A stretch of 64,000 nt of DNA from Candidatus Kaiserbacteria bacterium RIFCSPHIGHO2_01_FULL_54_36 (GTDB lineage: Bacteria; Patescibacteriota; Minisyncoccia; Phycocordibacterales; UBA2100), in assembly GCA_001781105.1 (NCBI GenBank), contig MFKV01000028.1, positions 10,428-74,427 of the forward strand, read 5' to 3'. Positions 10,864 to 38,813 of the stretch are shown here, in pieces. Every line of letters starts with the position of its first letter. The stretch's first letter is position 1. The notes under the pieces were generated by a model that had not been told where the DNA came from, searched no databases, and saw only the letters and a program-made list of their open reading frames with translations. The position numbers and the translations under genes are program-made.

Positions 10864-12735
10864 ATGGATCCCGATTACGACTCCAACTCCCGTACAGCTC
10901 AAAATCTGAAAGTGACGCTTACCAAAGAGCGCACGGTCGGCCACTTCTCTTCTTTAGGAGACGTGCTTCGTACATTCAGCCCCGGCGAGCGCCTTATTCT
11001 CTATGCGTTCACTATTCTTTTGGGTATCTCAGCGCTTGCGCTGCTCGCGGGCTTGAATTCGGCTGTCTCGGTCACGGTACCTACCCAAGGCGGCACGCTT
11101 GTCGAAGGCGAGGTAGGCCCTGCGCGATTTATCAACCCTATTCTTATGCTTTCGCAGCCTGACGAGGACCTGTCAATGCTTGTCTACTCGGGTCTCACTC
11201 GAGTCTTACCAGAGCCGAGCCCGTCTGGCGCGCAGAGCTCTGTGGTACCGGATCTTGCGAGCCACTATGAGGTTTCTGAAGACGGGACGACGTATACCTT
11301 TACGCTCCGGGAAGATGCAACATTCCACGATGGTTCCCCGGTTACTGCCGACGACGTTATTTTCACGGTGGAAGCAGCACAAGATCCCGCTATCAAGAGC
11401 CCGCGGCGTGCTGATTGGGAAGGCGTCCAAGTGTCGGCGACGGACGAGCATACGGTCGTATTCAAGCTAGCACATGCGTATGCGCCGTTCATCGAGAATA
11501 CGACGCTCGGCATTTTGCCCAAGCACATTTGGGGAAACGTGCCGGCGGAAGAATTCCCTTTTAGCCCTGCCAATACGCACCCAATAGGTAGCGGCCCGTA
11601 TCGAGTGCTAAGTTCTGCCACGGATGCAACCGGCTCTGCTACACGCTACGATCTTGTACCTTTCAGAAACTACACGCTCGGAGAAGCATATGTGAAGCGC
11701 ATTACGTTTGTCTTTTATCCTAACCAAGAGGCAATGCTCGAAGCATTTAACGCGCGAAAGATCGATGCGATCGCTGGCGTAACGCCCGCAGATCTTTCCA
11801 AGCTCGAGCGCACTGATTTTAATTATGTCCATGTGCCGCTGCCGAGAGTGTTCGGAGTCTTTTTTAATCAGAGCCATGCCCCAGTCCTTGCCGATACGGC
11901 AGTCCGAGTGGCGCTGGATCAGGCGCTCGACAAAGAAGAGATCGTGCGCACTGTCCTCAACGGGTACGGCAGGACGCTTGATGGGCCAATACCTCCCGGC
12001 TCAACGGGCGACATGCGCCCCGCTAGCGCGGCGACGTTTACGAAGCCAGAATCTGCGACGAGCTCTGCTGATTCAGCTTCCAACCTTGCAGACACTGCTC
12101 GCGCGACGCTGAAGCGAGCTGGTTGGACATTCCTGCCTGCCGCGACGAGCACGGCGCAAGCAGGCGACGAAGCGACGGGCGTGTGGAAAAAGAAAAATGT
12201 TGAATTAGCGTTCTCACTCGCGACAGCAGGCGAGCCCGAGCTTTTGGCAACGGCAAATAAAGTCGCAGCGTATTGGCGCGCCGCTGGGATCAAGGTAGAG
12301 GTGCAGGTATATTCCCTTTCTGAGCTCAACACGACTGTTTTGCGGCCGCGCGCCTATGACGCGATCCTCTTTGGAGAAGTCGTGGGGCGAACCGCCGATC
12401 TGTTTGCGTTCTGGCACTCAAGCCAGCGCAATGATCCCGGGCTCAATCTTGCCCTCTATGCAAATTCCCGTGTTGATTCACTCTTGAGCCAAGCGCGCGC
12501 GACTACGGATTTTAGGCAGCGTGAAAAATTGTACGAGCAATTTTCTGATGCCGTTGCAAACGACACCCCGGCTATATTCTTGTACGCGCCTGAATTTATT
12601 TACCTCGTGCCAAGCTCTGTGCATGGGATCACGCTTGGTTCGCTCACCACTCCCGCTGAGCGATACGTCAACATTAGAAATTGGTATACCGACACAGAAA
12701 AAGTCTGGAATATCTTTACTGAAAAATCAAACTAA
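10864..12735 (+). CDS. ABC transporter substrate-binding protein, family 5 (peptide/nickel type)
   Basis: 623 aa with an N-terminal membrane anchor and an SBP_bac_5-like core (...YRVLSSATDATGSATRYDLVPFRNY...). Confidence 0.8.
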   Translation: MDPDYDSNSRTAQNLKVTLTKERTVGHFSSLGDVLRTFSPGERLILYAFTILLGISALALLAGLNSAVSVTVPTQGGTLVEGEVGPARFINPILMLSQPDEDLSMLVYSGLTRVLPEPSPSGAQSSVVPDLASHYEVSEDGTTYTFTLREDATFHDGSPVTADDVIFTVEAAQDPAIKSPRRADWEGVQVSATDEHTVVFKLAHAYAPFIENTTLGILPKHIWGNVPAEEFPFSPANTHPIGSGPYRVLSSATDATGSATRYDLVPFRNYTLGEAYVKRITFVFYPNQEAMLEAFNARKIDAIAGVTPADLSKLERTDFNYVHVPLPRVFGVFFNQSHAPVLADTAVRVALDQALDKEEIVRTVLNGYGRTLDGPIPPGSTGDMRPASAATFTKPESATSSADSASNLADTARATLKRAGWTFLPAATSTAQAGDEATGVWKKKNVELAFSLATAGEPELLATANKVAAYWRAAGIKVEVQVYSLSELNTTVLRPRAYDAILFGEVVGRTADLFAFWHSSQRNDPGLNLALYANSRVDSLLSQARATTDFRQREKLYEQFSDAVANDTPAIFLYAPEFIYLVPSSVHGITLGSLTTPAERYVNIRNWYTDTEKVWNIFTEKSN

Positions 12736-12875
12736 CTATGCCCGGCAGGACAATTTCGAATTGCCTCGGCATGAACATTCACCAACCTATGACAAGAAAA
12801 ATCACTTCAGCAGTCTTACCAACCTTCCACAGGCTAACCTGCGGCAGGAATTATTCGAAATTGTACTAGCCGGGT

Positions 12876-14747
12876 ATGGGACCACAATCAACACAACGAA
12901 ACCCTTCCCCCCAGCATGGGAGGCCCCGTTCACGGCCCCCAAGTCGCGCTCCGCAAAGAAGTGGCAGAGTGCGGCATTTTGGCCGCTCCAATCACCCCCC
13001 ACGTCGCACACGCTCGCGCGTCGAACACCAGCAGTCAAAAGATCGCAAACAATTCATAGCTCCGATCGCGCCGCCCCCTGCCGATACCATCCGTATTATC
13101 CCCCTGGGTGGCGTCGAAGAAGTCGGGCGCAACATGACCGCCGTTGAGTTCGGCAACGATATTTTTATTCTGGATTGCGGATTTGCGTTCTCCGAAGGAG
13201 ATACGCCGGGAGTGGATTACATCCTACCCAACACGGGATACCTCGAAGAGCGGCGGGATAAAATACGCGGCCTCCTGATCGGCCACGGCCACCTCGACCA
13301 CATCGGCGGCATTCCCTACATCATCGATCGCATCGGCAACCCCACGATCTACACGCGGCGCCTCACCGCCAAGATGATCCAGAAGCGCCAAGAGGAATTC
13401 ACGTCCGCCGTGCCCGTCAACATCCGCGAAGTGGAGAGCGACGAGGTCATCAAGCTCGGCGCCGCAACCATCCGATTCTTCGGCGTCACGCATACGGTGC
13501 CTGATTCAATGGGCATCATTATCGGGACCCCGCATGGCGACGTCGTCTACACGGGCGATATAAAACTCAATCACTTGGACGGTGAACCATCGGATGAGGA
13601 GAAAAAAGAATTCGGCATCTTTAAGGATCGCAACGTACTTGCGCTTCTTATGGACTCGACCAACGTCTGGCAGCCCGGCTTCTCCATCCCCGAATCAGTT
13701 GTCTATAAGACCCTTGATGGGATCATCAAAGAGTCAAAGGGTCGCCTCATCATCGCGATGTTTGCCTCGCACCTCGAGCGACTCATCCGCGTCGTGCACT
13801 TTGCCGAGCAGTACGGCAAGAAGATCGTCATAGACGGACGTTCCATGCGCACCAACATCGAGATCGCGCGAGAGATCGGACTCATCAAGTACAAGGACGA
13901 CACGGTCGTTGCGGTCGAGAATATGGGGCAATATCAACCCGAGAGAATGATAATCCTTGCTACAGGAGCTCAGGGCGACGAATTCGCCTCGCTCGCGCGC
14001 ATCGGCAATAAATCACACAAGCACATCCGCCTACAGCCGACCGACACCGTCGTGCTCTCTTCTTCGGTCATTCCCGGCAACGAGCGCGCGGTCCAGAAGC
14101 TCAAAGACAATCTCTCACGCCAGGGCGCACACATCATTACCTACCACGCCTCCGACGTGCACGCTTCCGGCCACGGCAACCGCGAAGAAGCTGCGTGGAT
14201 CCACTCCCAGATCAAACCGAAATTCTTCATTCCCGTGCACGGATACCACTACATGCTACGCGTGCATGCCGATCTCGCAATCGAAATGGGCGTGAAGCCC
14301 GAGAACATCGCGATACCTGACAACAGCTCTGTCATTGATATTGTGAAAGGAGAGAAAATCATCAAGCATCCTTTCAAAGCACCTGCAGAGTTACGCGTCG
14401 TCGAAGGGCACACCGTAAGTGAGCTTTCCGATGTCTTGATGCGAGATAGAAAAGCACTGGGTCAAGAAGGATTCTGCGTAGTCGTTGCCACAGTAGATCG
14501 CCGCTCCGGCAAGCTGCACAAATCCCCCGACATCATCTCGCGCGGGTTCGTCTATCTGCGAGACAACAAGGAGCTCATGGACCAGACGCGCCTCATCATC
14601 CGCAAGTCAGTGGAAACATCGCTGCGCAATCCTCGCGCTGCTGACCTCGATGTCGCCCGCGAAGACCTCGCCGACGCAGTCTCCCAATTCCTCCTCCAAC
14701 GCACCATGAAGCGCCCGATCGTTATTCCGGTAATTGTTTCAGTGTAG
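12876..14747 (+). CDS. rnj: Ribonuclease J (metallo-beta-lactamase/beta-CASP)
   Basis: HGHLDHIGG motif, beta-CASP region and C-terminal domain. An unusual roughly 60-aa Arg/Pro/Ser-rich N-terminal extension precedes the conserved IRIIPLGGVEEVGRNM. Confidence 0.88.
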   Translation: MGPQSTQRNPSPQHGRPRSRPPSRAPQRSGRVRHFGRSNHPPRRTRSRVEHQQSKDRKQFIAPIAPPPADTIRIIPLGGVEEVGRNMTAVEFGNDIFILDCGFAFSEGDTPGVDYILPNTGYLEERRDKIRGLLIGHGHLDHIGGIPYIIDRIGNPTIYTRRLTAKMIQKRQEEFTSAVPVNIREVESDEVIKLGAATIRFFGVTHTVPDSMGIIIGTPHGDVVYTGDIKLNHLDGEPSDEEKKEFGIFKDRNVLALLMDSTNVWQPGFSIPESVVYKTLDGIIKESKGRLIIAMFASHLERLIRVVHFAEQYGKKIVIDGRSMRTNIEIAREIGLIKYKDDTVVAVENMGQYQPERMIILATGAQGDEFASLARIGNKSHKHIRLQPTDTVVLSSSVIPGNERAVQKLKDNLSRQGAHIITYHASDVHASGHGNREEAAWIHSQIKPKFFIPVHGYHYMLRVHADLAIEMGVKPENIAIPDNSSVIDIVKGEKIIKHPFKAPAELRVVEGHTVSELSDVLMRDRKALGQEGFCVVVATVDRRSGKLHKSPDIISRGFVYLRDNKELMDQTRLIIRKSVETSLRNPRAADLDVAREDLADAVSQFLLQRTMKRPIVIPVIVSV

Positions 14748-16742: not shown

Positions 16743-18005
16743 ATGATCCGCAAGATAAAGAACGCCCTGTATTTCACCGTCGCGAGTTATTTCAGATTCT
16801 TTGCACGAATTCGCCTCCGGTACTGGAAACCGCGAGTAGTCCTTGTCACTGGGTCCAATGGAAAAACGGTCTGCCTGCATCTGTGCGCCGTACAATTTGG
16901 GCCGGCCGCGAAATACTCATTCAATGCAAATAGTGCGTTCGGGATACCGTTCGATATTCTTGGGCTGAAGCGCTCGAGCTTTTCACTGTCGGAATGGCCT
17001 ACCTTATTCCTTCTGGCCCCATTCTATGCCTTTACAGGTCCACATCCTGAAAAAATCTACTTTGTGGAAGTCGACGGAGACCGCCCAGGCGCTGGCGATT
17101 TTTTCGGATCATTTTTGAAGCCCGAGGTATGCGTATTGCTTAGCTCCGCACGAACGCATAGCATGCTCTTTGAAGGCACTGTCGGCCCTGGGAAATTCCA
17201 GAATGCCGACGAGGCGATCGCTTATGGGTTTGGGCGCTTCCTCGCACATACATCCAAGCTCGCGATCATAAACGCTGATAATCCGCGTATCGTCGAAAAC
17301 GCGAAGCAAACGACAGCGGACACATACGAGATCAGCGAACGAGCATTACTAGACGCGTATGCGGTCAGTACGTCCGGCACGGAGTTCACTATTGCCGAGC
17401 GTACGTACCTTGTGCCGTATATGCTCCCCAAAGAAACGTTCTACGCGATCGCGTCCTTGATCAGGCTCGCAGAGTATTTTGGTGTTGAGCCACTGAGCGA
17501 CTTCACCGATCTCGTGCTCCCGCCGGGCAGGAGTTCTGTATTTCGAGGCATCAAGAAAACGACGATCATAGACAGCAGCTACAACGCAAACACCGATTCG
17601 GTCGTAGCAATAGTCCGCATGGCAGAGGCGCTGCCCGGAGAAAAGTGGCTCATTCTGGGGGATCTGATAGAACAAGGTGTACTCGAGCAAGAAGAGCACG
17701 AGCGCCTTGGGCATATACTTGCGTTGTGTAATCTCAAACGAACGATATTGGTGGGTCCCCGCATGCGGGCTTTCGTGATGCCAATCCTCGAGAAAAGCGG
17801 CAAACTTGTGGAGTCGTTCATCGGTCCGAGAGATGCGCTCGACTATCTAGGATCAGCTATACAAGGAGGCGAAACATTGGTATTTAAAGGTGCACGATTT
17901 TTGGAAGGTATCATTGAACATCTCCTTGCTGATAACGCAGATATCGCAAAACTGTGTCGCCGCGAGAAGGTATGGCAGCAGCGCAGGGCGAAATGGGGAC
18001 TCTAA
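16743..18005 (+). CDS. Mur ligase family protein (MurF-like)
   Basis: VLVTGSNGKT P-loop, a Mur ligase middle domain and a C-terminal domain. Confidence 0.8.
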   Translation: MIRKIKNALYFTVASYFRFFARIRLRYWKPRVVLVTGSNGKTVCLHLCAVQFGPAAKYSFNANSAFGIPFDILGLKRSSFSLSEWPTLFLLAPFYAFTGPHPEKIYFVEVDGDRPGAGDFFGSFLKPEVCVLLSSARTHSMLFEGTVGPGKFQNADEAIAYGFGRFLAHTSKLAIINADNPRIVENAKQTTADTYEISERALLDAYAVSTSGTEFTIAERTYLVPYMLPKETFYAIASLIRLAEYFGVEPLSDFTDLVLPPGRSSVFRGIKKTTIIDSSYNANTDSVVAIVRMAEALPGEKWLILGDLIEQGVLEQEEHERLGHILALCNLKRTILVGPRMRAFVMPILEKSGKLVESFIGPRDALDYLGSAIQGGETLVFKGARFLEGIIEHLLADNADIAKLCRREKVWQQRRAKWGL

Positions 18006-18009
18006 CACC

Positions 18010-18708
18010 ATGAACAGACACAAACTTTTTATTCTTCACGGATGGACGTATTACGCGGCTGAGACGTGGAAGCCGCTGCTGGAGATACTTTCCGCACGAG
18101 GCATTGACTATGAATTCCTACGCATCCCCGGCCTCACCGATGGTACCAATCCTGTGTGGACGCTGGACGATTATGTGCGTTGGCTGGAGGAAAGGACCGT
18201 ACCGTTCGATAAGGTCATTCTCTATGGCCACTCCAACGGCGGTCGCATTTCCCTGGCATTTACGGCAAAGCATCCCGAAAAAGTATCGTGCCTCATTCTC
18301 GAGGATAGTGCGGGTATTCCTCCAGTAGGATTGCGGAAGTGGAAGCGCGATATCTTCAAAAAAATAGCCAATATTGGACAGATGTTCGTTCGTTCAGAGC
18401 GTTTCCGAGACCTATTTTACAAGATCATTCGTGAAAGTGATTACCGAAAGGCTACACCCGAGATGCGGAAGACTATGGCAAATCTGCTTTCGGTAGATCT
18501 CTCGCTCGTTTTGGGTCAAATCGTATGTCCGACACTCATCATTTGGGGTGCGAATGATGCCACGACGCCGATCTCCGGCGGCAAGGTGATGCATGCGGGT
18601 ATCCGGAACTCGCGAATGGTCGTCATCCCCGACGCTCGGCACGCGCCGCATATTACCCATACAAAAAAAGTCGCTGATCTCATCTCGGAAGAGTTGAAAC
18701 GAACATGA
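18010..18708 (+). CDS. Alpha/beta-fold hydrolase
   Basis: GHSNGG nucleophile elbow and a conserved His near the C-terminus. Start chosen at MNRHKLFILHGW, directly after the Mur ligase stop. Confidence 0.8.
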   Translation: MNRHKLFILHGWTYYAAETWKPLLEILSARGIDYEFLRIPGLTDGTNPVWTLDDYVRWLEERTVPFDKVILYGHSNGGRISLAFTAKHPEKVSCLILEDSAGIPPVGLRKWKRDIFKKIANIGQMFVRSERFRDLFYKIIRESDYRKATPEMRKTMANLLSVDLSLVLGQIVCPTLIIWGANDATTPISGGKVMHAGIRNSRMVVIPDARHAPHITHTKKVADLISEELKRT

Positions 18709-20921
18709 GTATCTTTAATTCCCTTGGTTCAAATCACACTTTCTTCTCCGCGATCCGGATGCTCTTTACCGCAGGCGGCGCATCAGCGCCCAATAGTTTG
18801 CGTACGTATCTCGAGAAGCGGTATGGCGGGCGCGCGATCCTCACTTACAAGGGCCGTGAAGCCCTGGGCCTCGCATTCACATCCTTGCCGGCAGTTGGGG
18901 GGTCGATCGCGATCAATGGATTTACCTGCTGGGCTGTATTCGAGGCGCTCCATGCGAGCGGCTACAAAACTCATTATTTAGATATTTCAGACCACTCGCT
19001 GCACTTCTCTGCCGATGCGCTCAACGACGCGCTTACAGAAGATCAGTCTATTCGTGCGGTCGTGATCCAGAACACGCTTGGCATTCCATGCGACATCGAG
19101 CCGATCGCCGCTCTGTGCCGAGAACACAATATTGCACTTATTGAAGACCTCGCACACTCGATCGGCACCCAATATGCTTCGGGCCAAGAAGCAGGCACTG
19201 TGGGCGATCTCGTCGTGCTCTCATTTAGCCAAGACAAGGTTATCGACGCGGTCTCAGGTGGCGCACTTATCATACGCAACGAAAAATATGCCAAGCACCC
19301 CACGCTCACCCCAAAAAGAGTTGGCCTCGTTCATCAGATCAAAGACCGATTGTACCCTCTGTTTACCTGCATCATTAGGCAAAGCTATACATTCGGGCTT
19401 GGCGGCATCATCCACCAAATACTTCGCTCGCTCAATATGCTCTCGCGTCCGCTTTCCGATACTGAAACAAGCGAGCTGCATGGGCTTCCGGGATGGTATT
19501 GCGCCGTTATTCACGAAAAATATGTGGCGCTCGAAGCTGCTGCGAAACACCGACAGAAAATTGCGCAAGTATATACCGAGATGATCGATGCGAGGGTGCA
19601 GTTTCCCCGCCACGCGGCACCCGAGCATTCCGCAAACCTGCGATTTCCGCTTGTTCTTAATGGCCGCGATCTTCTCATCCAGCACCTAAAGAATAACGAT
19701 GTACACGTGGGCGATATTTGGTACGACGCGCCGGTGGGGCCGCAGCGCTTCCTGTATCGTACTGATTACTCTGGAGAGTGTCCGCGATCCGAAGATGTTG
19801 CAAGTAAGATCGTAAACCTGCCGACTCATATCAACGTATCTCCAGCGCAAGCACACATGATCGCAAGGGCGGTCAATGAGTGGTTAGCAGAACAATCTGG
19901 CGATGGATACAGCATACGGACGATCTCGCAAGAAGTTGTGTGGGAAGACTTTATGCGTGCAATGAAGCCGCACAGCTTTTTGCACTCATGGAAATGGGGC
20001 GAGCATTTCGAAAAAACTGGATCCAAGATCTTCCGTGTTGGTATCTACCACGGACACTCGCTCGCGGGTGTAGCACTACTCATTAAGGTAGCCGCTCGCC
20101 GCGGATTGTTCTTGCTCTGTCCTCACGGCCCATTGGTGGCCGAATCCGAAAATGAGGAAGAGGTCTTGCGGATGCTCGCTGCACATTGCACGCGCATCGC
20201 CGCGGACGAGCGATGCGATTTCATCCGCTTCTGCCCTCTCTTGCAAAGGAGCGCTGAACATAGCGCGATGTACCGACGCTTGGGCTTCAGTGACGCTCCG
20301 ATCCACATGCATCCTGAGATCTCATGGATGCTCGATATTACGAAATCCGAAGACGAGCTTTTGATGGGCATGCGCAAGACGACCCGGTACTTGATCAAGA
20401 AAATGGAGAAGGAAGGTGTCGTGATAACGACAAGCAAGGATCCTGCAGATATGGAGCACTTCTCGCGTATATATGAGGCAACCGTGGAGCGCCAGCAATT
20501 CACTCCCTTTAGTAAGAGCTACCTGCGGACCGAGTTCGAATTGTATGTAAAAGATGATCAAGCTCTTTTCTTTTTCGGCAAGCAGAAAGGCGTGCTCGTT
20601 GCAGCAGCAATCATTATTTTTTATAATGGTCAGGCGTTTTATCACCATTCTGGGTCGCTCTCGTCCGGCTCCAATGTCTCATACCTCCTACAGTGGCGAG
20701 TCATTCAGGAAGCGAAGCGCCGCGGATGCACGCTCTACAACTTCTGGGGCGTAGCGCCGGAACATAACTCTCGCCATGCATGGACTGGGCTTTCGCGTTT
20801 CAAGCGCGGATTCGGGGGATTTGCCGAACACTATCTGCATGCGCAAGACAAGGCTCTCACTGCGCGATACTTGCTCAATTATGTTATAGAAACGGTCCGC
20901 CGTATTCGGCGACACCTCTAA
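18705..20921 (+). CDS. Fusion protein: N-terminal DegT/DnrJ/EryC1-type PLP-dependent aminotransferase-like domain plus C-terminal FemAB-family (peptidoglycan branch peptidyl-transferase) domain
   Basis: The N-terminal half has IEDLAHSIGTQY...VVLSFSQDKVIDAVSGGALI (DegT family, with the Lys in SQDK as the candidate PLP lysine). The C-terminal half has ...FYNGQAFYHHSGS...LLQWRVIQEAKRRGCTLYNFWGV (FemAB family). ATGA overlap with the upstream gene. Confidence 0.75.
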   Translation: MSIFNSLGSNHTFFSAIRMLFTAGGASAPNSLRTYLEKRYGGRAILTYKGREALGLAFTSLPAVGGSIAINGFTCWAVFEALHASGYKTHYLDISDHSLHFSADALNDALTEDQSIRAVVIQNTLGIPCDIEPIAALCREHNIALIEDLAHSIGTQYASGQEAGTVGDLVVLSFSQDKVIDAVSGGALIIRNEKYAKHPTLTPKRVGLVHQIKDRLYPLFTCIIRQSYTFGLGGIIHQILRSLNMLSRPLSDTETSELHGLPGWYCAVIHEKYVALEAAAKHRQKIAQVYTEMIDARVQFPRHAAPEHSANLRFPLVLNGRDLLIQHLKNNDVHVGDIWYDAPVGPQRFLYRTDYSGECPRSEDVASKIVNLPTHINVSPAQAHMIARAVNEWLAEQSGDGYSIRTISQEVVWEDFMRAMKPHSFLHSWKWGEHFEKTGSKIFRVGIYHGHSLAGVALLIKVAARRGLFLLCPHGPLVAESENEEEVLRMLAAHCTRIAADERCDFIRFCPLLQRSAEHSAMYRRLGFSDAPIHMHPEISWMLDITKSEDELLMGMRKTTRYLIKKMEKEGVVITTSKDPADMEHFSRIYEATVERQQFTPFSKSYLRTEFELYVKDDQALFFFGKQKGVLVAAAIIIFYNGQAFYHHSGSLSSGSNVSYLLQWRVIQEAKRRGCTLYNFWGVAPEHNSRHAWTGLSRFKRGFGGFAEHYLHAQDKALTARYLLNYVIETVRRIRRHL

Positions 20922-21586
20922 CGAACCTTTGGCCACCTGTTGGCGGCCTCGGGCCAAAGCTTGGTAAGCGGATGCGTGATGCAATCGGTGTGCGGGCGGG
21001 CGGGGCAAATATAGCGACCGTGGAGTACGAGGCCATTGTTGACGTATTTCCAGTCTCTTTTTGGAATCAACGATTCCAGGTCTTTCGAGATCTTCGTAAG
21101 GTCCTCATTGTCAGTAAGGTCGAAGCGCTTGGCGAAGCGCTTCACATGCGTGTCCGTCGGTATTCCCTCCCAGATATTATAGAGCTCGCCAAGGACGACG
21201 TTGGCAGTCTTGTAGCCGACACCCGGAAGCGTTTGTAATTCACTGATAGTGCACGGCACACAGCCGCCGAAATCTTGTACGACTTTTTTTGCGGCCGCAA
21301 CGATGTGCTTTGCTTTGTTGCGAAAAAACGTGATGGCCGATATTTCTTTGGTGAATGTCTCGAGGTTTGCCCGTGCAAAATCCTTCGGCGTCTTATATTT
21401 CGTGAAGAGGTGCGCGTCGGTCACGCGATTCACTACCTTGTCGGTACACTGCGCCGACATGACGACCGCAACGACGAATTGGAAGGGCGTCTTATACGTG
21501 AGCTCGCTTTTGGGTTTGGGATACTCTTTTTTGAGATAGGCAACAATTTTTAGTGCTCGAGCGCGCCTTTGTCCTTCTTTGCCCAT
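20918..21586 (-). CDS. nth: Endonuclease III (Nth) family HhH-GPD glycosylase
   Basis: LPGVGYKTANVV and catalytic-region conservation. Only two Cys (CPARPHTDC) where the 4-Cys [4Fe-4S] loop is expected. Confidence 0.85.
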   Translation of the reverse strand: MGKEGQRRARALKIVAYLKKEYPKPKSELTYKTPFQFVVAVVMSAQCTDKVVNRVTDAHLFTKYKTPKDFARANLETFTKEISAITFFRNKAKHIVAAAKKVVQDFGGCVPCTISELQTLPGVGYKTANVVLGELYNIWEGIPTDTHVKRFAKRFDLTDNEDLTKISKDLESLIPKRDWKYVNNGLVLHGRYICPARPHTDCITHPLTKLWPEAANRWPKVR

Positions 21587-24321: not shown

Positions 24322-25374
24322 ATGTTCCACTCATTAGAGAGATACACGGTAGAGAGCGTTACTTCAGGCCACCCCGACAAAGTCTGCGATCAGATATCCG
24401 ATGCGATACTCGATGCGTGCCTTAAACAAGACAGGTACAGCCGTGTTGCCGTAGAGAGTTTCGGCAGCCACGGCACCCTCATACTCGGCGGCGAGGTGAA
24501 GACCAGGGCAAAAGTCGATTTTGAAAGAATAGCGCGCAAGGTATACCGCGACATCGGATACACAGATACTTTGAAAGTACTTAATACGATTGCAAAGCAG
24601 TCGCCGGATATTGCAATGGGCGTTGATACGGGCGGCGCTGGCGATCAGGGAATCATGTACGGATACGCGACCAACGAGACAAAGGAAATGCTTCCGCTTG
24701 GTGTCGTCCTCTGTCACGCGCTCGCGCGAAGGCTCGAGAAGCTTCGGCGAGACAAAACTCTCAAATGGCTCAAGCCCGACGGCAAGACGCAAGTGACGAT
24801 CAGCAATGGCAAGGTCATCACTGCGCTCTGCTCGACACAGCACGATAAGAAAGTTTCTCAAGAAGAAATACGAAAACAGCTCATCAAGCATCTCTTTACA
24901 CCAATCTTGGGTAATCTGAAAAACATTGAAATACTCGTCAACCCGACAGGACAATTCATACTCGGCGGTTTTACCGCCGACGCCGGCTTGACCGGCCGCA
25001 AGATAATGGTGGATACCTACGGCGGGGTCATGCCGCATGGCGGCGGTGCATTCTCGGGCAAGGATGCTACGAAGGTAGACCGCTCGGCTGCGTACATGTG
25101 CCGTTTTGTTGCGAAAAATCTGGTGGCCAATGGCTATGCGAAAAAAGCGCTCGTATCGGTTGCCTACGCGATCGGTCGCGTAGAGCCAGTCATGATCGAA
25201 GCCTTCGATGAAAAAGGCAAAAACCTCACAAAGATCGTAAACGAACATTTCGATTTTCGTCCGCGCGCGATCATCAAGCGCCTCGGGCTCAATCGTCCGA
25301 TCTTTCAGGCAACCGCAGCCTACGGCCACTTCGGCGTCGCCGGCAGGCCGTGGGAGAAGATCGTTAAGATCTAA
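24322..25374 (+). CDS. metK: S-adenosylmethionine synthetase
   Basis: GHPDKVCDQISDAILDA and GGGAFSGKD motifs. Confidence 0.95.
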   Translation: MFHSLERYTVESVTSGHPDKVCDQISDAILDACLKQDRYSRVAVESFGSHGTLILGGEVKTRAKVDFERIARKVYRDIGYTDTLKVLNTIAKQSPDIAMGVDTGGAGDQGIMYGYATNETKEMLPLGVVLCHALARRLEKLRRDKTLKWLKPDGKTQVTISNGKVITALCSTQHDKKVSQEEIRKQLIKHLFTPILGNLKNIEILVNPTGQFILGGFTADAGLTGRKIMVDTYGGVMPHGGGAFSGKDATKVDRSAAYMCRFVAKNLVANGYAKKALVSVAYAIGRVEPVMIEAFDEKGKNLTKIVNEHFDFRPRAIIKRLGLNRPIFQATAAYGHFGVAGRPWEKIVKI

Positions 25375-27216
25375 CTATTCGACAGTAACGGATTTTGCGA
25401 GGTTGCGCGGGCGATCCACGTTGAGACCCTTTTCTTTCGCGAAATAGTACGCGAAAAGCTGCAAGGGCACGATGTTGAGAATGGGAGCGAGCATTTCAAG
25501 CGTACTCGGGACAAACAACACATCATTCACAAGCTTTCCGATCTCTGTGTCTCCTTCGGTCGCAAGCGCAATGACAGGGCCTTTGCGTGCCTTTATTTCG
25601 TGAATGTTGGATACATTCTTTTCATACACGCTGTCTTGGGGCACGATCGCGAATGTTGGAAAGTGCTCGTCTATCATCGCGATGGGGCCATGCTTCATCT
25701 CCCCGGCTCCATATCCTTCCGCGTGGATATATGAAATTTCTTTCAATTTCAGTGCGCCTTCGAATGCTACGGGATAGTTGTACTTGCGCCCGATAAAAAT
25801 AAAGTCCCGCACTCCCGCGTACTTCTTCGCAATTTTCTCAATCTTCTGTTTCGTGTCGAGTATGTGCTGTACTTTATTCGGCAATTCTTTGAGCGCGAGC
25901 GCGATTTCCTTAGCGGTCTTCTCCGACATCCCGCCCTGGCCGGGCAGGCGCTGCCGCCCTAGGAATATCGTAAGGAGCACCAGCGCGGCGAGCTCTGAAA
26001 TAAGTGCTTTCGTAGAGGCGACGCTTACTTCCGGCCCTGCGTGATTGTAGACTCCGGCATCGGTCTCACGAGCAATCGTACTACCGACGGCGTTGACGAT
26101 ACCGAGCGTGAGCGCGCCTCTGCGTTTCCCTTCTCGTACCGCTTCGAGCGTATCGAGAGTCTCTCCTGATTGTGAGATAGCGATGAGGGCAGTCCTTTGA
26201 TTCAAAACGGGAGAGCGATAGCGAAATTCGCTCGCATGCTCTACCTCGACTGGAATACCTGCGAATTCCTCGAGCATGTACTCACCGATGAGACCGGCGA
26301 TATGGGCCGATCCGCACGCCACAATGATGATGCGTTCTATCTGTGCGAGTTCTGTGGCGACACTTTCAAGCCCTCCGAGTTTCACCATTCCTTTCTCGGC
26401 AATTAATCGCCCGCGAAGGGTATTTTCGATCACATCTGGACCCTCCATTATTTCCTTGAGCATGAAGTGCTCATAGCCACCCTTTTGTGCTTCCTCGGCA
26501 TTCCAATCGATCTCGGTAGCGATGCGATTCACTTTCGTCGCATCAAGCTTGGTGATGCTGTGGCCATCGGGTGTAATGATAGCGACCTCGCCATCTTCGA
26601 GAAAAACCACCTTTTTCGTATGCGGCAAGATCGGCGAAGGGTCCGACGCGATAAAATGTTCGCCATCGCCAAGACCGAGCACTATTGGGCTGCCCATACG
26701 CGCGGCGATTATTTTGTCAGGCTCGCCCTTGTACTGAAGCGCGATTCCATAGGTGCCGCGCACTTCGTTGAGCGCCATGAGCGCGGCTTTTTCAAAATCC
26801 TTGGTTTTCTTTAAGTGCTCCTCCACAAGGTGCGGGAGAACTTCTGTATCGGAGTCAGATAGAAACGTATGTCCTTGGACGACCAGCTTTGCCTTCAATT
26901 CTTTGAAATTCTCGATAATACCGTTGTGCACGACCCATATTTCGCCATCGCCGCTTGCATGCGGGTGCGCGTTCTTCTCCGTAGGCTCGCCGTGCGTTGC
27001 CCAGCGTAGATGCGCGATGCCACTTTTGCCGGTAAAGCTTGCTGGCATTTTCTTGCGCAGTTCTGCGACCGCCCCCGGAGTTTTAATACTGCCGGATTCC
27101 GGTGTATAGATGCCGGCTGAATCGTAGCCGCGATACTCGAGCGAGAGCAGTCCATCGAGAAGAACGCCCCCGGCGTCTTTCCCGTTTTTTCCTGTATAGG
27201 CAAAAATGCCACACAT
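25375..27216 (-). CDS. glmS: Glutamine--fructose-6-phosphate aminotransferase
   Basis: MCGIFAY N-terminal nucleophile and two SIS domains. 613 aa. Confidence 0.97.
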   Translation of the reverse strand: MCGIFAYTGKNGKDAGGVLLDGLLSLEYRGYDSAGIYTPESGSIKTPGAVAELRKKMPASFTGKSGIAHLRWATHGEPTEKNAHPHASGDGEIWVVHNGIIENFKELKAKLVVQGHTFLSDSDTEVLPHLVEEHLKKTKDFEKAALMALNEVRGTYGIALQYKGEPDKIIAARMGSPIVLGLGDGEHFIASDPSPILPHTKKVVFLEDGEVAIITPDGHSITKLDATKVNRIATEIDWNAEEAQKGGYEHFMLKEIMEGPDVIENTLRGRLIAEKGMVKLGGLESVATELAQIERIIIVACGSAHIAGLIGEYMLEEFAGIPVEVEHASEFRYRSPVLNQRTALIAISQSGETLDTLEAVREGKRRGALTLGIVNAVGSTIARETDAGVYNHAGPEVSVASTKALISELAALVLLTIFLGRQRLPGQGGMSEKTAKEIALALKELPNKVQHILDTKQKIEKIAKKYAGVRDFIFIGRKYNYPVAFEGALKLKEISYIHAEGYGAGEMKHGPIAMIDEHFPTFAIVPQDSVYEKNVSNIHEIKARKGPVIALATEGDTEIGKLVNDVLFVPSTLEMLAPILNIVPLQLFAYYFAKEKGLNVDRPRNLAKSVTVE

Positions 27217-35966: not shown

Positions 35967-36117
35967 ACTATGCGTGTATAAATCGTACTAATTATTTTAT
36001 TCGACGCGTTCACTGTAGCACGCACCTCCCCTAGAGAGCGAGCCGATCCGCCCCCGCAACCCATACAATGAATTCCGCTCCATTCTGGTCCCTGACCCAA
36101 TTCTCTTTGAGCGCAGA

Positions 36118-36147
36118 TAGAAAGACCGCCTCTGCGGCGGTCTTTCT
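36118..36147. terminator. Perfect hairpin AGAAAGACCGCC-TCTGC-GGCGGTCTTTCT
   Basis: 12-bp perfect stem immediately downstream of the 36168 gene stop. No strong U-tract. Confidence 0.45.
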
Positions 36148-36167
36148 TCAAACAGCAGTCGGGAGAT

Positions 36168-36653
36168 TTAGTTCCCGTATCCGTTGGGTGTCGCACGCGC
36201 AAACCAATAGTGCGAACCCGCGTCAGTGCCCTGATCCATGAGGACCTCGAACTGGCCCCAGATGCAGTAGCCGCCGTCGGGAAGCGTTGCAAAGTCGGTG
36301 CACGCGCCGATCCACTTGATCTTGTAGTGCCATACCGAGCCCGAACCGCCCTTCTTGCCGTTCCACTCGTTGTCTATCCACGCGTCATAGGGTGGATTCA
36401 ACCAGCCTTCATCGTTGCCGCGATCCCACTCCGCATTCCACTTCATCACGATCTTATCGTTCGCATAGGTCGTGTCGCCGAAGTATGTGCCGTCTAGATT
36501 GCGGTCGATGCCGTCGGCAAGGCCGTTGAAAATACGCGCCGTCTCGTTGTATCCATACTGGTCGAAGCCGGCGGCAGAAACGGCCGTGGCGCCGAGCAAT
36601 GTCATCCCAAGGACCGCCGCGGCGAGCCAGGAATTTTTTATAGTTAGATTCAT
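36168..36653 (-). CDS. Secreted hypothetical protein (Trp/Asp/Gly-rich)
   Basis: Signal peptide MNLTIKNSWLAAAVLGMTLLGATAVSAAG. No family recognised. Confidence 0.6.
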   Translation of the reverse strand: MNLTIKNSWLAAAVLGMTLLGATAVSAAGFDQYGYNETARIFNGLADGIDRNLDGTYFGDTTYANDKIVMKWNAEWDRGNDEGWLNPPYDAWIDNEWNGKKGGSGSVWHYKIKWIGACTDFATLPDGGYCIWGQFEVLMDQGTDAGSHYWFARATPNGYGN

Positions 36654-36740
36654 AGATTTTAAAGATTACTACTAATGAACAGATTGTACTCCGCCATACT
36701 ACAAGTTCAAGAATGTCGGGCAGTATATCAAATTCCGTTT

Positions 36741-37415
36741 CTATTGCCGCAAAACGAAGTTAATTATTTGCCATATCGGGCGAGCAATTTTTTCGATTGT
36801 AAGCGCAAAAGTCTCTGCAAAGTTAGGAACATTTGAGCTTGATTCTTCGACTTTTTCGCCTGTGGCTACAATAGCCTCTTGAATGAGAATACTGGTATTT
36901 GCCAGATTGTGAATTGTGGCATCGGGTATCGCATTTAATACGTCCGTTATGGGTACGATTCGTCCGACAGTAATATAAAAACTTCCCGTCCCGGTGAGGG
37001 TTGAAGTCTTTCTCAGTGGGTATTTATCGATATTTTCGATAAACCACGCTCGAGTTTGCCGCAAAGGCAAAATATACAACCTTTTTGTAGTTACAAAATA
37101 ATAATATAAATCATCTGCTTCACTATAGAGGAAACATCCGGGCGTTTGATGTTCTTCGTTACTAATCGTTTCAAAAAAGAAGTTTCCGGTCCGGTCATAT
37201 GTATCTCCTTTTACCTCGATAAGCCGTTCCATTCTTAATCCGTTGAGTTTGAATTTCCAAATCAGGTCTATATCTCTTTTTTGATATTCTATATTTTTCT
37301 CGACATTAAATATTTCTACCGTTTCAGCCATCGCTCTCATGTAACGGGTTACGGCAAAGACTGCATCATCAGCGATTGTAAACGAGTCAGCAATCTTATA
37401 CGTTCTAAGATCCAT
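36741..37415 (-). CDS. Hypothetical protein with PD-(D/E)XK nuclease-like motif, a candidate restriction endonuclease
   Basis: 224 aa in the low-GC island. RDIDLIWKF...ERLIEVKGD fits D-x(n)-E-x-K. Immediately downstream of the MTase and the 140-aa gene. Confidence 0.5.
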   Translation of the reverse strand: MDLRTYKIADSFTIADDAVFAVTRYMRAMAETVEIFNVEKNIEYQKRDIDLIWKFKLNGLRMERLIEVKGDTYDRTGNFFFETISNEEHQTPGCFLYSEADDLYYYFVTTKRLYILPLRQTRAWFIENIDKYPLRKTSTLTGTGSFYITVGRIVPITDVLNAIPDATIHNLANTSILIQEAIVATGEKVEESSSNVPNFAETFALTIEKIARPIWQIINFVLRQ

Positions 37416-37418
37416 GGA

Positions 37419-38673: not shown

Positions 38674-38813
38674 GTGGATTATTATACCCCACGCGCGGTT
38701 GCTCATTTTGGGGAATCGGGGCCGTATTGCGGGGGTGGAGTGCGGGTGCCATAGTTGGGGTCGAAACTTAACCCAGCTCTTTGAGGTGGAAAGAGCTCTA
38801 CTTGGAGGCTACA

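What the first reader, a model, noticed from the sequence alone, without database searches (positions are those of the whole stretch)
16743..20921. Cell-wall operon: Mur ligase, alpha/beta hydrolase, and a DegT-aminotransferase::FemAB fusion protein
Three tightly coupled plus-strand genes; the last overlaps the second by ATGA. The 738-aa product joins a PLP-dependent DegT/DnrJ-type domain to a FemAB-type aminoacyl-transferase domain. That domain combination is not classical. Sitting next to a MurF-like ligase, it suggests a pathway that builds or modifies a peptidoglycan stem or branch, or a nucleotide-sugar amino group, with an unusual substituent.
Basis: partly seen in the sequence, partly recalled or inferred. 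Interest (0 to 1): 0.6.

Follow-up and report, generated by a model that had tools for sequence, protein, structure and literature searches.

The report
Conserved CPR cell-wall precursor gene cassette
The three genes are real and form a four-enzyme cassette (MurF-type ligase, serine hydrolase, PLP enzyme, tRNA-dependent peptide-bond enzyme) found throughout the tiny Patescibacteria, sitting where other bacteria keep D-Ala-D-Ala ligase, so it may be an undescribed way to finish the cell-wall stem peptide.

Summary
Three coupled plus-strand genes encode a MurF-type ligase without the N-terminal domain, a serine alpha/beta hydrolase, and a 738-aa DegT-like::FemX-like fusion. All catalytic residues are intact. 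The window is from a Candidatus Kaiserbacteria genome.

The fusion is not an artefact. Elsewhere in Patescibacteria the same two domains are adjacent, overlapping genes. The four components travel together in about 150 loci examined. In some Microgenomates-type loci the cassette lies inside the mur/dcw cluster, in the murF position upstream of mraY. Those clusters hold every other cytoplasmic step but no Ddl or Alr.

In six loci with otherwise matching synteny, the hydrolase/PLP/Fem trio (four loci) or the whole cassette (two) is replaced by canonical Ddl, with or without Alr. The FemX-like domain keeps the catalytic Lys but lacks FemX's UDP-phosphate-binding residues.

My best reading (about 0.4) is that the trio makes the dipeptide that the MurF-type ligase adds, using aminoacyl-tRNA instead of Ddl. 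DhpH is a precedent for the logic. Two loci with a divergent Ddl-like gene, and one with a second MurF, weaken strict exclusivity. Whole-genome Ddl absence could not be tested. I found no literature on the cassette.

The parts
16743..18005 (+). MurF-type ATP-dependent ligase (420 aa) without N-terminal domain 1. A long helix (aa 2-28) leads straight into the P-loop.
   Evidence: Pfam and NCBIfam hits. E. coli MurF aligns its residues 99-148 to query residues 29-75. AF2 pLDDT 92.3 and pTM 0.90. The ten best Foldseek matches are all MurF. The MurF-type DSSYNAN and GD(L/M)xEQG motifs are conserved.
16851..16868 (+). P-loop GSNGKT (aa 37-42) of the ligase
   Evidence: Read from the sequence. G37, S38, K41 and T42 are invariant in the family.
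18010..18708 (+). Alpha/beta-fold serine hydrolase (232 aa). It starts 4 nt after the ligase stop.
   Evidence: PF00561 scores 73.5 bits. Generic esterase relatives in the PDB. The Ser75/Asp183/His211 triad and the HGW oxyanion motif are invariant in 77 of 77 homologues.
18232..18234 (+). Codon of the nucleophile Ser75 (GHSNGG)
18705..19919 (+). DegT-like PLP domain of the fusion (aa 1-~405), with a ~50-aa helical insert at about aa 200-262
   Evidence: PF01041 scores 125.9 bits. A family profile against PDB sugar aminotransferases gives E = 2e-32 in two blocks. Foldseek TMt is 0.75-0.80.
19236..19238 (+). Codon of Lys178, the PLP Schiff-base lysine (SFSQDK)
   Evidence: Aligned to the catalytic Lys of 7b0d, 7n63 and 3frk. 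Invariant.
19905..20921 (+). FemX-like double-GNAT domain of the fusion (aa ~401-738), without the FemA coiled-coil arm
   Evidence: PF02388 scores 110.6 bits. A family profile against FemX_Wv gives E = 5e-24 over the full length. Foldseek to 1ne9/1xf8 gives TMt 0.79 and rmsd 3.4-3.6.
20802..20804 (+). Codon of Lys700, equivalent to the catalytic Lys305 of FemX_Wv (invariant F-K)
   Evidence: Alignments. F699 and K700 are invariant.
18705..18708 (+). ATGA start/stop overlap between the hydrolase and the fusion gene

Best explanation
The three genes are the Kaiserbacteria form of a four-component peptidoglycan-precursor cassette that is conserved across Patescibacteria.

The 420-aa protein is most likely the organism's MurF-type enzyme. 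It would use ATP to add the C-terminal dipeptide to UDP-MurNAc-tripeptide, and it is streamlined by loss of domain 1.

I propose that the other three activities supply that dipeptide in place of D-Ala-D-Ala ligase:
- The FemX-like domain forms the peptide bond by transferring an aminoacyl group, most simply alanyl, from aminoacyl-tRNA to the amino group of a free amino acid such as D-Ala, or of a second aminoacyl ester.
- The fused or adjacent DegT-like PLP enzyme sets the D configuration. It could act on the free amino acid, on the aminoacyl ester, or on the free N-terminal residue of the dipeptide.
- The serine hydrolase performs an ester or peptide hydrolysis step, either product release or proofreading.

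Shown here: gene structure, domain identity, intact catalytic residues, strict co-occurrence of the four components, placement in the murF slot of mur/dcw clusters, and replacement by Ddl (with or without Alr) in matching synteny.

Inferred: the Ddl-substituting role, the tRNA donor, the identity of the amino acids, the chemistry of the PLP step and the role of the hydrolase.
For: 1. Linkage. Of 80 GTDB loci fetched with the ligase, 66 carry hydrolase, DegT-like and FemAB-like genes directly downstream on the same strand (11 fused, 55 split). Twelve contigs end too early, and none has any other arrangement apart from two with Ddl. Of JGI loci fetched with the DegT-like protein, 38 of 39 with enough upstream flank have hydrolase plus ligase, and 55 of 55 with enough downstream flank have FemAB. 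Distant versions keep all four parts in another order, hydrolase-ligase-fusion.

2. Pathway position. L073 reads FtsI-MurE-MurC-MurB-MurA-[cassette]-MraY-MurL-MurD. L159 and L168 read MurE-MurC-(MurD)-MurI-[cassette]-MraY-FtsW-MurG-..-FtsA-FtsZ. These clusters contain every other cytoplasmic step but no Ddl, Alr or second MurF.

3. Displacement in matching synteny. In the frame M24 peptidase-3 hypotheticals-DnaB-ligase-X-..-EF-P-MFS, X is the trio in the Levybacteria chromosome (L005) and X is Ddl in L089 and L090. L059 reads ligase-Ddl and L082 reads ligase-Ddl-Alr. In the frame HolB-GyrB-MurC-MurI/MurL-MurD-X-GyrA, X is the cassette in L026, L038 and L043 and Alr-Ddl in L088 and L092.

4. 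The Ddl-linked ligases belong to the same family (355-410 bits). They nest at two places among trio-linked ones in a neighbour-joining tree.

5. A classical PBP transpeptidase sits in the same cluster, so an acyl-D-Ala-D-Ala-type terminus is needed.

6. The FemX-like family keeps the catalytic F-K but has H/F at FemX_Wv K36 and Phe at R211, the UDP-phosphate binders (the roles of K36/R211 are from my knowledge of the FemX_Wv literature).

7. The DegT-like family keeps Lys178 and Asp148 but has invariant Cys75, His151, Gln122 and Arg51 at positions that sugar aminotransferases fill with F/Y, Q, H and S/T.

8. Precedent. DhpH-C, a FemX-like domain, condenses Leu-tRNA with free L-Ala(P) into a dipeptide (PMC12945691). 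That its N-terminal half is a PLP domain making the acceptor is from my memory of Bougioukou et al., PNAS 2013.

9. A true alanine racemase (TIGR00492, 343 bits) lies 0.9 kb downstream of the trio in L075. D-amino-acid-transaminase-like genes flank it in L005 and L084. This is consistent with free D-Ala being a substrate.
Against: - Whole-genome absence of Ddl in trio-bearing genomes was not testable with these tools. Only flanks of 7-10 kb were seen.
- Two trio loci (L138, L145) carry a short divergent Ddl-family ATP-grasp gene next to the ligase. It scores 150-155 bits against a cut-off of 243, and 47-54 bits against E. coli DdlB.
- One locus (L127) has a second, more canonical MurF (268.7 bits on TIGR01143) between the cassette and mraY. 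The cassette ligase therefore need not be the only MurF.
- ddl is often next to murF or inside dcw clusters in ordinary bacteria, so sharing a slot is weaker evidence than it looks.
- Aminoacyl-tRNAs carry L-amino acids, so a D,D-dipeptide needs an epimerisation. No member of this PLP family is known to do that.
- No role for the hydrolase follows from the data.
- No biochemical data exist.
Confidence: 0.4

Rival explanations
1. This is a FemX_Wv-type branch pathway. The ligase is the ordinary MurF using Ddl-made D-Ala-D-Ala. The FemX-like enzyme then adds an amino acid from aminoacyl-tRNA to the position-3 side-chain amine of UDP-MurNAc-pentapeptide. The PLP enzyme modifies the free alpha-amine of that branch residue by epimerisation or transamination, and the hydrolase trims or proofreads.
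For: FemX_Wv and S. aureus FemX are the best sequence and structure matches. The cassette sits between murF-type and mraY genes, which is the stage at which FemX_Wv acts. DegT enzymes usually bind nucleotide-linked substrates, and UDP-MurNAc-peptide is one (general knowledge). L003 has an extra FemAB gene after the fusion, as in multi-step bridges. L127, L138 and L145 show that a canonical MurF or a Ddl-like gene can coexist with the trio.
Against: The residues equivalent to FemX_Wv K36 and R211, which hold the UDP phosphates, are not conserved, and D108 is not either. A decoration would not be expected to be kept so strictly in genomes of 0.7-1.1 Mb. Nor would it be expected to be swapped for Ddl/Alr in the same slot at least twice. 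The NCBIfam FemX equivalog scores only 51.5 bits against a cut-off of 500.
Confidence: 0.27
2. This is an aminoacylated amino-sugar pathway. The DegT-like enzyme aminates a nucleotide-linked keto-sugar. The FemX-like enzyme acylates the new amine with an amino acid from tRNA. The Mur-type ligase extends the peptide. The product decorates a wall glycopolymer or glycoprotein rather than the stem peptide.
For: All closest DegT relatives are sugar or inositol aminotransferases. FemX-like enzymes that acylate non-peptidoglycan amines are known, such as Orf11, VlmA and PacB (PMC12945691).
Against: No 4,6-dehydratase, oxidoreductase, nucleotidyltransferase or glycosyltransferase recurs next to the cassette. 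The only recurrent neighbours are mur/dcw and housekeeping genes. Several active-site residues typical of sugar aminotransferases are replaced. The best equivalog score is 92.7 bits against a cut-off of 420. The ligase is MurF-lineage and pairs with Ddl in four loci.
Confidence: 0.1
3. This is a salvage or editing module. The hydrolase and PLP enzyme process host-derived muropeptides or peptides, and the ligase and FemX-like enzyme re-attach them to precursors. That would suit epibiotic bacteria that cannot make amino acids.
For: Patescibacteria have reduced biosynthesis (general knowledge). The hydrolase has weak similarity to S33 aminopeptidases and proline iminopeptidases. An SBP_bac_5 peptide-binding protein lies 4 kb upstream in the window and in L001.
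Against: Mpl-type recycling ligases are MurC-like, whereas this ligase is MurF-like. In dcw-embedded clusters the cassette takes the murF slot of the biosynthetic pathway. The peptide-binding neighbour is not conserved outside Kaiserbacteria.
Confidence: 0.08
4. The 738-aa fusion is an assembly or sequencing artefact that joins two genes.
For: In most Patescibacteria the two halves are separate genes that overlap by about 19 nt, so a single indel could fuse them.
Against: Fifty-seven full-length fused homologues from independent assemblies exist, with 100% query coverage and lengths of 722-765 aa. Twenty-eight fused clusters appear among the best 150 representatives at 50% identity. AF2 shows a continuous, confident linker region. 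The fusion is also seen in rearranged cassettes.
Confidence: 0.01

Closest known systems
FemX of Weissella viridescens (UDP-MurNAc-pentapeptide:L-alanine transferase; PDB 1NE9, 4II9)
   Same: Double-GNAT fold without the coiled-coil arm, with TMt 0.79. Full-length profile match at E = 5e-24. The catalytic Phe-Lys (F304-K305) is conserved as F699-K700. It acts at the soluble precursor stage, next to MurF.
   Different: About 20% identity. K36 and R211 (UDP-phosphate binding) and D108 are not conserved. It is fused to, or translationally coupled with, a PLP enzyme. It scores 51.5 bits against a cut-off of 500 on the FemX equivalog model. The acceptor is unknown.
DhpH of dehydrophos biosynthesis (PLP domain fused to a FemX-like tRNA-dependent domain)
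   Same: The same logic of a PLP enzyme joined to a FemX-like transferase. The FemX-like half makes a dipeptide by condensing an aminoacyl-tRNA with a free amino-acid-type acceptor (PMC12945691).
   Different: DhpH is a secondary-metabolite enzyme in Streptomyces. Its sequence relationship to the present protein was not tested, because no DhpH sequence was available. The nature of its PLP domain is from memory only. DhpH has no Mur ligase or hydrolase partner.
MurF (UDP-MurNAc-tripeptide:D-Ala-D-Ala ligase)
   Same: The best sequence and structure matches are MurF proteins. It has the P-loop, the Mg-binding Glu, and the DxSYNAN and GDMxE-type motifs. It takes the murF slot upstream of mraY in some clusters and lies next to Ddl in four loci.
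   Different: It lacks N-terminal domain 1. It scores 91 bits against a cut-off of 288.6 on TIGR01143. One genome has an additional, more canonical MurF beside it.
Ddl plus Alr (D-Ala-D-Ala ligase and alanine racemase)
   Same: They occupy the same genomic slot as the trio or cassette in related genomes. I propose the same pathway role, namely supply of the MurF dipeptide.
   Different: There is no homology. Ddl is an ATP-grasp enzyme and Alr is a fold-type III PLP enzyme. The trio is an alpha/beta hydrolase, a fold-type I PLP enzyme and a GNAT-fold tRNA-dependent transferase. Equivalence is inferred from context only.
DegT/DnrJ/EryC1/StrS sugar aminotransferases (e.g. ArnB, PseC, QdtB, WbpE)
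   Same: Fold-type I PLP fold with TMt 0.75-0.80. The Schiff-base Lys and the Asp that binds the pyridine nitrogen are conserved. The Pfam score is well above threshold.
   Different: At most about 22% identity. It has a ~50-aa helical insert. Invariant Cys75, His151, Gln122 and Arg51 replace the usual F/Y, Q, H and S/T. No keto-sugar-forming partner is present, and no equivalog threshold is reached.

Membership tests
DegT/DnrJ/EryC1/StrS aminotransferase family (PF01041) | Profile HMM score above the gathering threshold | tested here: met
   125.9 bits against 19.8
DegT/DnrJ/EryC1/StrS aminotransferase family (PF01041) | PLP Schiff-base lysine and the aspartate that binds the pyridine nitrogen | tested here: met
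   K178 and D148 align to the catalytic residues of 7b0d, 7n63 and 3frk, and are invariant
DegT/DnrJ/EryC1/StrS aminotransferase family (PF01041) | Fold-type I aminotransferase fold | tested here: met
   AF2 pLDDT 90. Foldseek TMt 0.75-0.80 to ArnB, WbpE, HCAN_0200 and WlaRG.
DegT/DnrJ/EryC1/StrS aminotransferase family (PF01041) | Active-site residues typical of nucleotide-sugar aminotransferases: the aromatic residue after the conserved Thr, the Gln after D-x-A, and the His of the vHlyG strand | tested here: not met
   They are replaced by family-invariant C75, H151 and Q122. That these positions line the cofactor is inferred from fold-type I topology.
DegT/DnrJ/EryC1/StrS aminotransferase family (PF01041) | Membership of a characterised sugar-aminotransferase equivalog, or a neighbouring enzyme that forms the keto-sugar | tested here: not met
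   The best equivalog is LegC-type at 92.7 bits against 420. No dehydratase or oxidoreductase family recurs among neighbours.
FemAB/FemX aminoacyl-tRNA transferases (PF02388) | Profile HMM score above the gathering threshold, and a double-GNAT fold | tested here: met
   110.6 bits against 24. Foldseek to FemX_Wv gives TMt 0.79 and rmsd 3.4.
FemAB/FemX aminoacyl-tRNA transferases (PF02388) | Catalytic lysine equivalent to FemX_Wv Lys305, preceded by Phe | tested here: met
   F699-K700 are invariant. The role of Lys305 is taken from PMC12945691.
FemAB/FemX aminoacyl-tRNA transferases (PF02388) | Residues that bind the UDP phosphates of UDP-MurNAc-pentapeptide (FemX_Wv K36, R211) | tested here: not met
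   The profile alignment puts H/F at K36 and a nearly invariant Phe at R211. The alignment around K36 is less certain.
FemAB/FemX aminoacyl-tRNA transferases (PF02388) | Use of aminoacyl-tRNA as the donor | not testable with these tools
   Needs an enzyme assay. tRNA-Ala(GGC) lies 3-6 kb upstream in 7 of 60 loci, which is only a weak hint.
MurF (TIGR01143) | Curated HMM cut-off | tested here: not met
   91.3 bits against 288.6
MurF (TIGR01143) | ATP-binding P-loop, central and C-terminal Mur ligase domains, and the MurF-type DxSYNAN motif | tested here: met
   GSNGKT at aa 37-42, and IDSSYNAN at aa 276-283 with D277, Y280 and N281 invariant. The ten best structural matches are all MurF.
MurF (TIGR01143) | N-terminal domain 1, which contributes to UDP binding | tested here: not met
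   The P-loop starts at residue 37, against about 107 in E. coli MurF. The AF2 model shows only one helix before it. The MurE of related loci is truncated in the same way.
MurF (TIGR01143) | Genomic position in the mur/dcw cluster upstream of mraY, or next to ddl | tested here: met
   L073, L032, L081, L159, L168 and L156 for the cluster position. L059, L082, L089 and L090 are next to Ddl. Not so in the window itself, where the cassette stands alone.
Alpha/beta hydrolase fold (PF00561) | HMM threshold and a Ser-Asp-His triad with the GxSxG elbow | tested here: met
   73.5 bits against 25.8. S75, D183 and H211 are invariant in 77 of 77 sequences.
DhpH-type PLP::FemX-like bifunctional enzymes | Sequence relationship of both halves to DhpH | not tested
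The resemblance is in architecture and logic only (and memory).

The most novel reading that the evidence does not exclude
Most Patescibacteria make the D-Ala-D-Ala (or an equivalent D,D-dipeptide) end of the stem peptide without an ATP-grasp Ddl. Alanyl-tRNA is the activated donor. A DegT-derived PLP enzyme inverts the alanyl alpha-carbon while the amine is free, either on the tRNA ester or at the dipeptide N-terminus, perhaps using the invariant Cys75 as a second base. A FemX-derived enzyme forms the peptide bond. The serine hydrolase releases the product, or frees D-Ala, from the ester. A domain-1-less MurF adds the product. This would be the first tRNA-dependent route to a core, not accessory, peptidoglycan building block, and a new reaction type for the DegT family.
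Probability: 0.25. Interest if true: 0.92.

Novelty: new variant of a known kind. Interest (0 to 1): 0.77.

Why it matters
Peptidoglycan precursor synthesis is regarded as one of the most uniform pathways in bacteria, and Ddl and Alr are antibiotic targets (D-cycloserine). If a large radiation finishes the stem peptide with a tRNA-dependent, PLP-assisted module instead of Ddl, several things follow:
- It would change how cell-wall capacity is scored in metagenomic reconstructions. These ligases are currently auto-annotated as MurF, 'cyanophycin synthetase' or hypothetical, and the fusion as a 'peptidoglycan bridge formation glycyltransferase'.
- It would add a new chemistry to the DegT and Fem families.
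- It would tie cell-wall synthesis in these reduced genomes to the translation apparatus.
- It would predict a different antibiotic susceptibility.

Even if the dipeptide hypothesis is wrong, a four-gene cassette conserved in hundreds of species next to core mur genes is an unassigned step in cell-wall assembly. It can be tested with standard complementation and in vitro assays.

Tried and rejected
- **Frameshift or assembly artefact for the fusion.** Rejected.
- **Ligase as MurT, FolC, CapB or cyanophycin-type.** Rejected. The best sequence and structure matches are MurF and the MurF motifs are present.
- **Genome-level test of Ddl absence.** I searched with the L059 Ddl and looked for hits whose longest contig matched a trio contig. 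None matched among the 120 listed of more than 8000 hits, so this is uninformative.
- **The 391-aa protein after Alr-Ddl in L088 as a cryptic MurF.** Rejected (hhalign probability 0.2; no Pfam or NCBIfam hit).
- **Recurrent extra partners.** All-against-all clustering of flanking ORFs found none beyond the four components. Other neighbours are mur/dcw or housekeeping genes that vary by lineage.
- **tRNA genes as a clue to the donor amino acid.** tRNA-Ala(GGC) and tRNA-Leu each occur near several loci, but 3-6 kb away and partly through shared synteny. This is too weak to use.
- **Promoter and terminator scan.** Nothing above the shuffled expectation.
- **Literature.** Six full-text searches found no paper that describes the cassette or a Ddl substitute in Patescibacteria. 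A 2025 domain-combination preprint and the lipocone paper mention FemAB or Patescibacteria only in other contexts.
- **Inter-domain geometry.** Model coordinates are not exposed, so I could not measure the distance or orientation between the two active sites of the fusion.

Full report
**1. What is in the window**

The window is 100% identical, at the level of the 738-aa protein, to a hypothetical protein of a Candidatus Kaiserbacteria bacterium (RIFCSPHIGHO2_01_FULL_54_3x).

- ORF 16743-18005 (420 aa) ends with TAA at 18003-18005.
- The next gene most plausibly starts at the ATG at 18010, not the upstream GTG at 17890 that the mechanical ORF list gives. It ends with TGA at 18706-18708.
- The third gene starts at ATG 18705, so the ATGA overlap is real.
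- The flanking genes are on the other strand: a HAD hydrolase and an HhH-GPD glycosylase upstream, and an endonuclease III-type gene that overlaps the 3' end by 4 nt.

The three genes therefore form a self-contained unit. A consensus promoter/terminator scan gave nothing above the shuffled expectation.

**2. Domain identity**

- *Ligase.* It passes Pfam Mur_ligase_C, and its best NCBIfam model is murF at 91 bits against a cut-off of 288.6. Its P-loop GSNGKT is at residues 37-42. E. coli MurF aligns its residues 99-148 there, so the ~80-residue domain 1 is missing. An AlphaFold model (pLDDT 92.3, pTM 0.90) shows one long helix and then the P-loop strand. The ten best Foldseek matches in the PDB are all MurF, ahead of MurC, MurD, MurE, pseudomurein ligases and MurT.
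- *Hydrolase.* It is a generic alpha/beta-fold serine hydrolase. Ser75, Asp183 and His211 are invariant in 77 homologues.
- *Fusion.* The 738-aa protein passes both PF01041 (125.9 bits) and PF02388 (110.6 bits). Its model has pLDDT 90.1. The N-terminal half superposes on sugar aminotransferases (TMt 0.75-0.80) and the C-terminal half on FemX of Weissella viridescens (TMt 0.79, rmsd 3.4 A). Lys178 (SFSQDK) and Asp148 align to the PLP lysine and aspartate. Phe699-Lys700 align to Phe304-Lys305 of FemX_Wv. All are invariant.

**3. The fusion is real but is only one state of a wider cassette**

- There are 57 full-length fused homologues at 53-77% identity and others at 31-41%.
- In the library clustered at 50% identity, 28 of the best 150 representatives are full-length fusions. 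The rest are stand-alone DegT-like (~395 aa) or FemAB-like (~340 aa) proteins.
- Reading the DNA around stand-alone DegT-like genes showed the same four genes in the same order: ligase, hydrolase, DegT-like, FemAB-like.
- A scan of one genome per GTDB species with the ligase alignment found 229 relatives. The named record titles are Patescibacteria lineages (Kaiser-, Nomura-, Kerfeld-, Colwell-, Doudna-, Davies-, Roizman-, Levybacteria, Saccharimonadia). About 25 TPA records are implausibly titled 'uncultured Gammaproteobacteria'.
- Of the 80 loci kept, 66 have the full trio after the ligase (11 fused, 55 split, typically with a 19-nt ORF overlap). Twelve contigs end too early, two have Ddl instead, and none has anything else.
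- A JGI metagenome scan with the DegT-like alignment gave 425 relatives. Among the 80 loci kept, 38 of 39 with enough upstream flank have hydrolase plus ligase, and 55 of 55 with enough downstream flank have FemAB.
- Two distant fused versions have the order hydrolase, MurF-type ligase, fusion. One of these ligases carries an N-terminal membrane domain.

The association therefore survives rearrangement. That is strong evidence that all four proteins work together.

**4. Pathway context**

In the window and in other Kaiserbacteria the cassette stands among unrelated genes. In some Microgenomates-type loci it lies inside the mur/dcw cluster:

- L073: FtsI-MurE-MurC-MurB-MurA-[ligase-hydrolase-DegT-like-FemAB-like]-MraY-MurL-MurD.
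- L032 and L081: the cassette sits between MurI and MraY-FtsW-MurG.
- L159 and L168: MurE-MurC-(MurD)-MurI-[cassette]-MraY-FtsW-MurG-..-FtsA-FtsZ.

So the ligase takes the murF slot, and the other three genes sit between murF and mraY. These clusters hold every other cytoplasmic step of precursor synthesis, and L073 also holds a classical PBP transpeptidase, but they hold no Ddl or Alr. The MurE of L073 also lacks its N-terminal domain. Loss of domain 1 thus looks like lineage-wide streamlining rather than a change of substrate class.

**5. Swaps with Ddl and Alr**

I searched all fetched loci with E. coli dcw proteins. In the first 86 loci, Ddl turned up only in L059 and L082. These are exactly the two loci where the ligase is not followed by the trio, and in both Ddl follows the ligase directly. 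L082 continues with a true alanine racemase.

I then looked up other CPR Ddl genes:

- L089 and L090 have the frame M24 peptidase, three small ORFs, DnaB, ligase, Ddl.., EF-P, MFS. This is the same frame as the Levybacteria chromosome L005, where the trio stands in place of Ddl.
- L088 and L092 have HolB-GyrB-MurC-MurI/MurL-MurD-[Alr-Ddl]-..-GyrA. L026, L038 and L043 have the whole cassette in that place.

The ligases next to Ddl are ordinary members of the cassette-ligase family (355-410 bits). In a neighbour-joining tree they fall at two separate places among trio-linked ligases. This suggests at least two replacements, although the tree is a rough one.

**6. Active-site clues**

- *FemX-like family.* A family profile aligns to FemX_Wv over its whole length. 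It places H/F at Lys36 and a nearly invariant Phe at Arg211, and Asp108 is also not kept. From my knowledge of the FemX_Wv structural work, Lys36 and Arg211 hold the UDP phosphates of UDP-MurNAc-pentapeptide. This argues that the acceptor is not bound as in FemX_Wv.
- *DegT-like family.* It keeps the PLP lysine and aspartate. It replaces four positions that are near-constant in sugar aminotransferases with its own invariant residues: Cys75 for the F/Y after the conserved Thr, His151 for Gln, Gln122 for His, and Arg51 for Ser/Thr. It also has a ~50-residue helical insert. By fold-type I topology these positions line the cofactor. That is an inference, since I could not inspect coordinates. Altered chemistry or substrate is likely, but which one is not shown.

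**7. Best explanation**

I take the cassette to be the module that completes the stem peptide. The ligase adds a dipeptide. The trio provides that dipeptide in place of Ddl, using an aminoacyl-tRNA as the activated donor (FemX-like), a PLP step to obtain the D configuration (DegT-like), and a hydrolytic step (hydrolase).

The logic has a precedent. The FemX-like domain of DhpH condenses Leu-tRNA with free L-Ala(P) to give a dipeptide (PMC12945691). From memory, DhpH's N-terminal PLP domain makes that acceptor.

A true Alr 0.9 kb downstream of the trio in L075, and D-amino-acid-transaminase-like genes beside it in L005 and L084, fit a scheme in which free D-Ala is the acceptor. How the donor residue becomes D, and what the hydrolase does, remain open.

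**8. What weakens this explanation**

- I could only see 7-10 kb around each gene, so Ddl may lie elsewhere in trio genomes.
- L138 and L145 carry a short, divergent Ddl-family gene on the opposite strand beside the ligase. It scores 150-155 bits against a cut-off of 243, and only 47-54 bits against E. coli DdlB, compared with 163-183 bits for the canonical CPR Ddl.
- L127 has a second, more canonical MurF (268.7 bits) between the cassette and mraY. It is unique among about 170 loci.
- ddl is commonly found near murF in ordinary bacteria.

I therefore give the Ddl-substitute reading about 0.4. I give a FemX_Wv-type branch pathway about 0.27, and smaller weights to an aminoacylated amino-sugar pathway and to salvage.

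**9. Comparison with what is known**

Each protein belongs to a known superfamily, but none reaches the threshold of a characterised equivalog. Automated names in the databases are 'peptidoglycan bridge formation glycyltransferase FemA/FemB family protein', 'MurF', 'cyanophycin synthetase' or 'hypothetical'. Six full-text searches found no description of the cassette.

I class it as a new variant of a known kind: peptidoglycan precursor synthesis with a Fem-type transferase. If the Ddl-independent route proves true, it would deserve a stronger label.

Noticed in passing
L073:12207-13610; L088:4973-6223 (-); L021:2294-4618 (-); L043:4633-6960 (-): Homologues of MurL, the UDP-MurNAc-L-Ala-L-Glu epimerase known from Xanthomonadales (NF041275, 397 bits), occur in patescibacterial mur clusters. 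Some appear fused to MurD (~775 aa). They occupy the place that glutamate racemase MurI holds in related loci, so this looks like a second in-place swap in the same clusters.
   Followed up: partly
L073:2261-3529; L030:11160-12341 (-): The MurE of these genomes (393-422 aa) also lacks the N-terminal UDP-binding domain (TIGR01085 aligned from model position 64). Domain-1 loss therefore affects both MurE and MurF in this lineage.
   Followed up: partly
L032:3732-5912; L138:2898-5021; L081:2626-4890; L159:3878-7285: Several natural Mur fusions occur: MurB::MurD (707-726 aa), and longer MurC-containing ORFs (754 and 1135 aa).
   Followed up: no
L127:12282-13481: A second, more canonical but also N-terminally short MurF (399 aa; TIGR01143, 268.7 bits) lies directly between the cassette and mraY on a 1.15-Mb contig. 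It is unique among about 170 loci. It could be a transitional state or could point to distinct roles for the two ligases.
   Followed up: partly
L138:6523-7374 (-); L145:2388-3248 (-): A short (283-286 aa), divergent Ddl-family ATP-grasp protein is encoded beside the cassette ligase on the opposite strand. Its specificity is unknown.
   Followed up: partly
L003:10243-11289 and 11353-13869: In a deep-branching fused cassette on an 877-kb contig, the fusion gene is followed by an extra stand-alone FemAB gene and then leucyl-tRNA synthetase.
   Followed up: no
L173:7129-8781: In a distant, rearranged cassette the MurF-type ligase (550 aa) carries an N-terminal region of ~190 aa with several hydrophobic helices, in place of domain 1. 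This suggests membrane anchoring.
   Followed up: no
L003, L030, L037, L042, L052, L064, L068 (3-6 kb upstream of the cassette): tRNA-Ala(GGC) genes lie upstream of the cassette in 7 of 60 loci scanned, in at least four different synteny contexts. tRNA-Leu is about as frequent. This may be chance.
   Followed up: partly
window 36100-38710 (-): A low-GC stretch (0.456 against about 0.53) holds an N6/N4 DNA methylase and a PD-(D/E)XK nuclease-domain protein, plus two ORFs with no family. It is probably a restriction-modification island.
   Followed up: partly
window 20918-20921: The endonuclease III-type gene on the minus strand (20918-21586) overlaps the stop codon of the fusion gene by 4 nt, tail to tail.
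   Followed up: no
L022, L026, L030-L033, L039, L042, L044, L045 and others (record titles): About 25 TPA_asm records titled 'uncultured Gammaproteobacteria bacterium' carry the patescibacterial cassette. Their ligases nest among Microgenomates sequences, and some contigs are 0.8 Mb. The taxonomic labels are probably placeholders or errors.
   Followed up: no
window 24322-25374 (+) and 25375-27216 (-): MetK (350 aa, all three S-AdoMet synthetase domains) lies tail to tail with GlmS. GlmS is the entry enzyme for UDP-GlcNAc and lies 4.5 kb from the cassette. This neighbourhood is conserved in L001.
   Followed up: no
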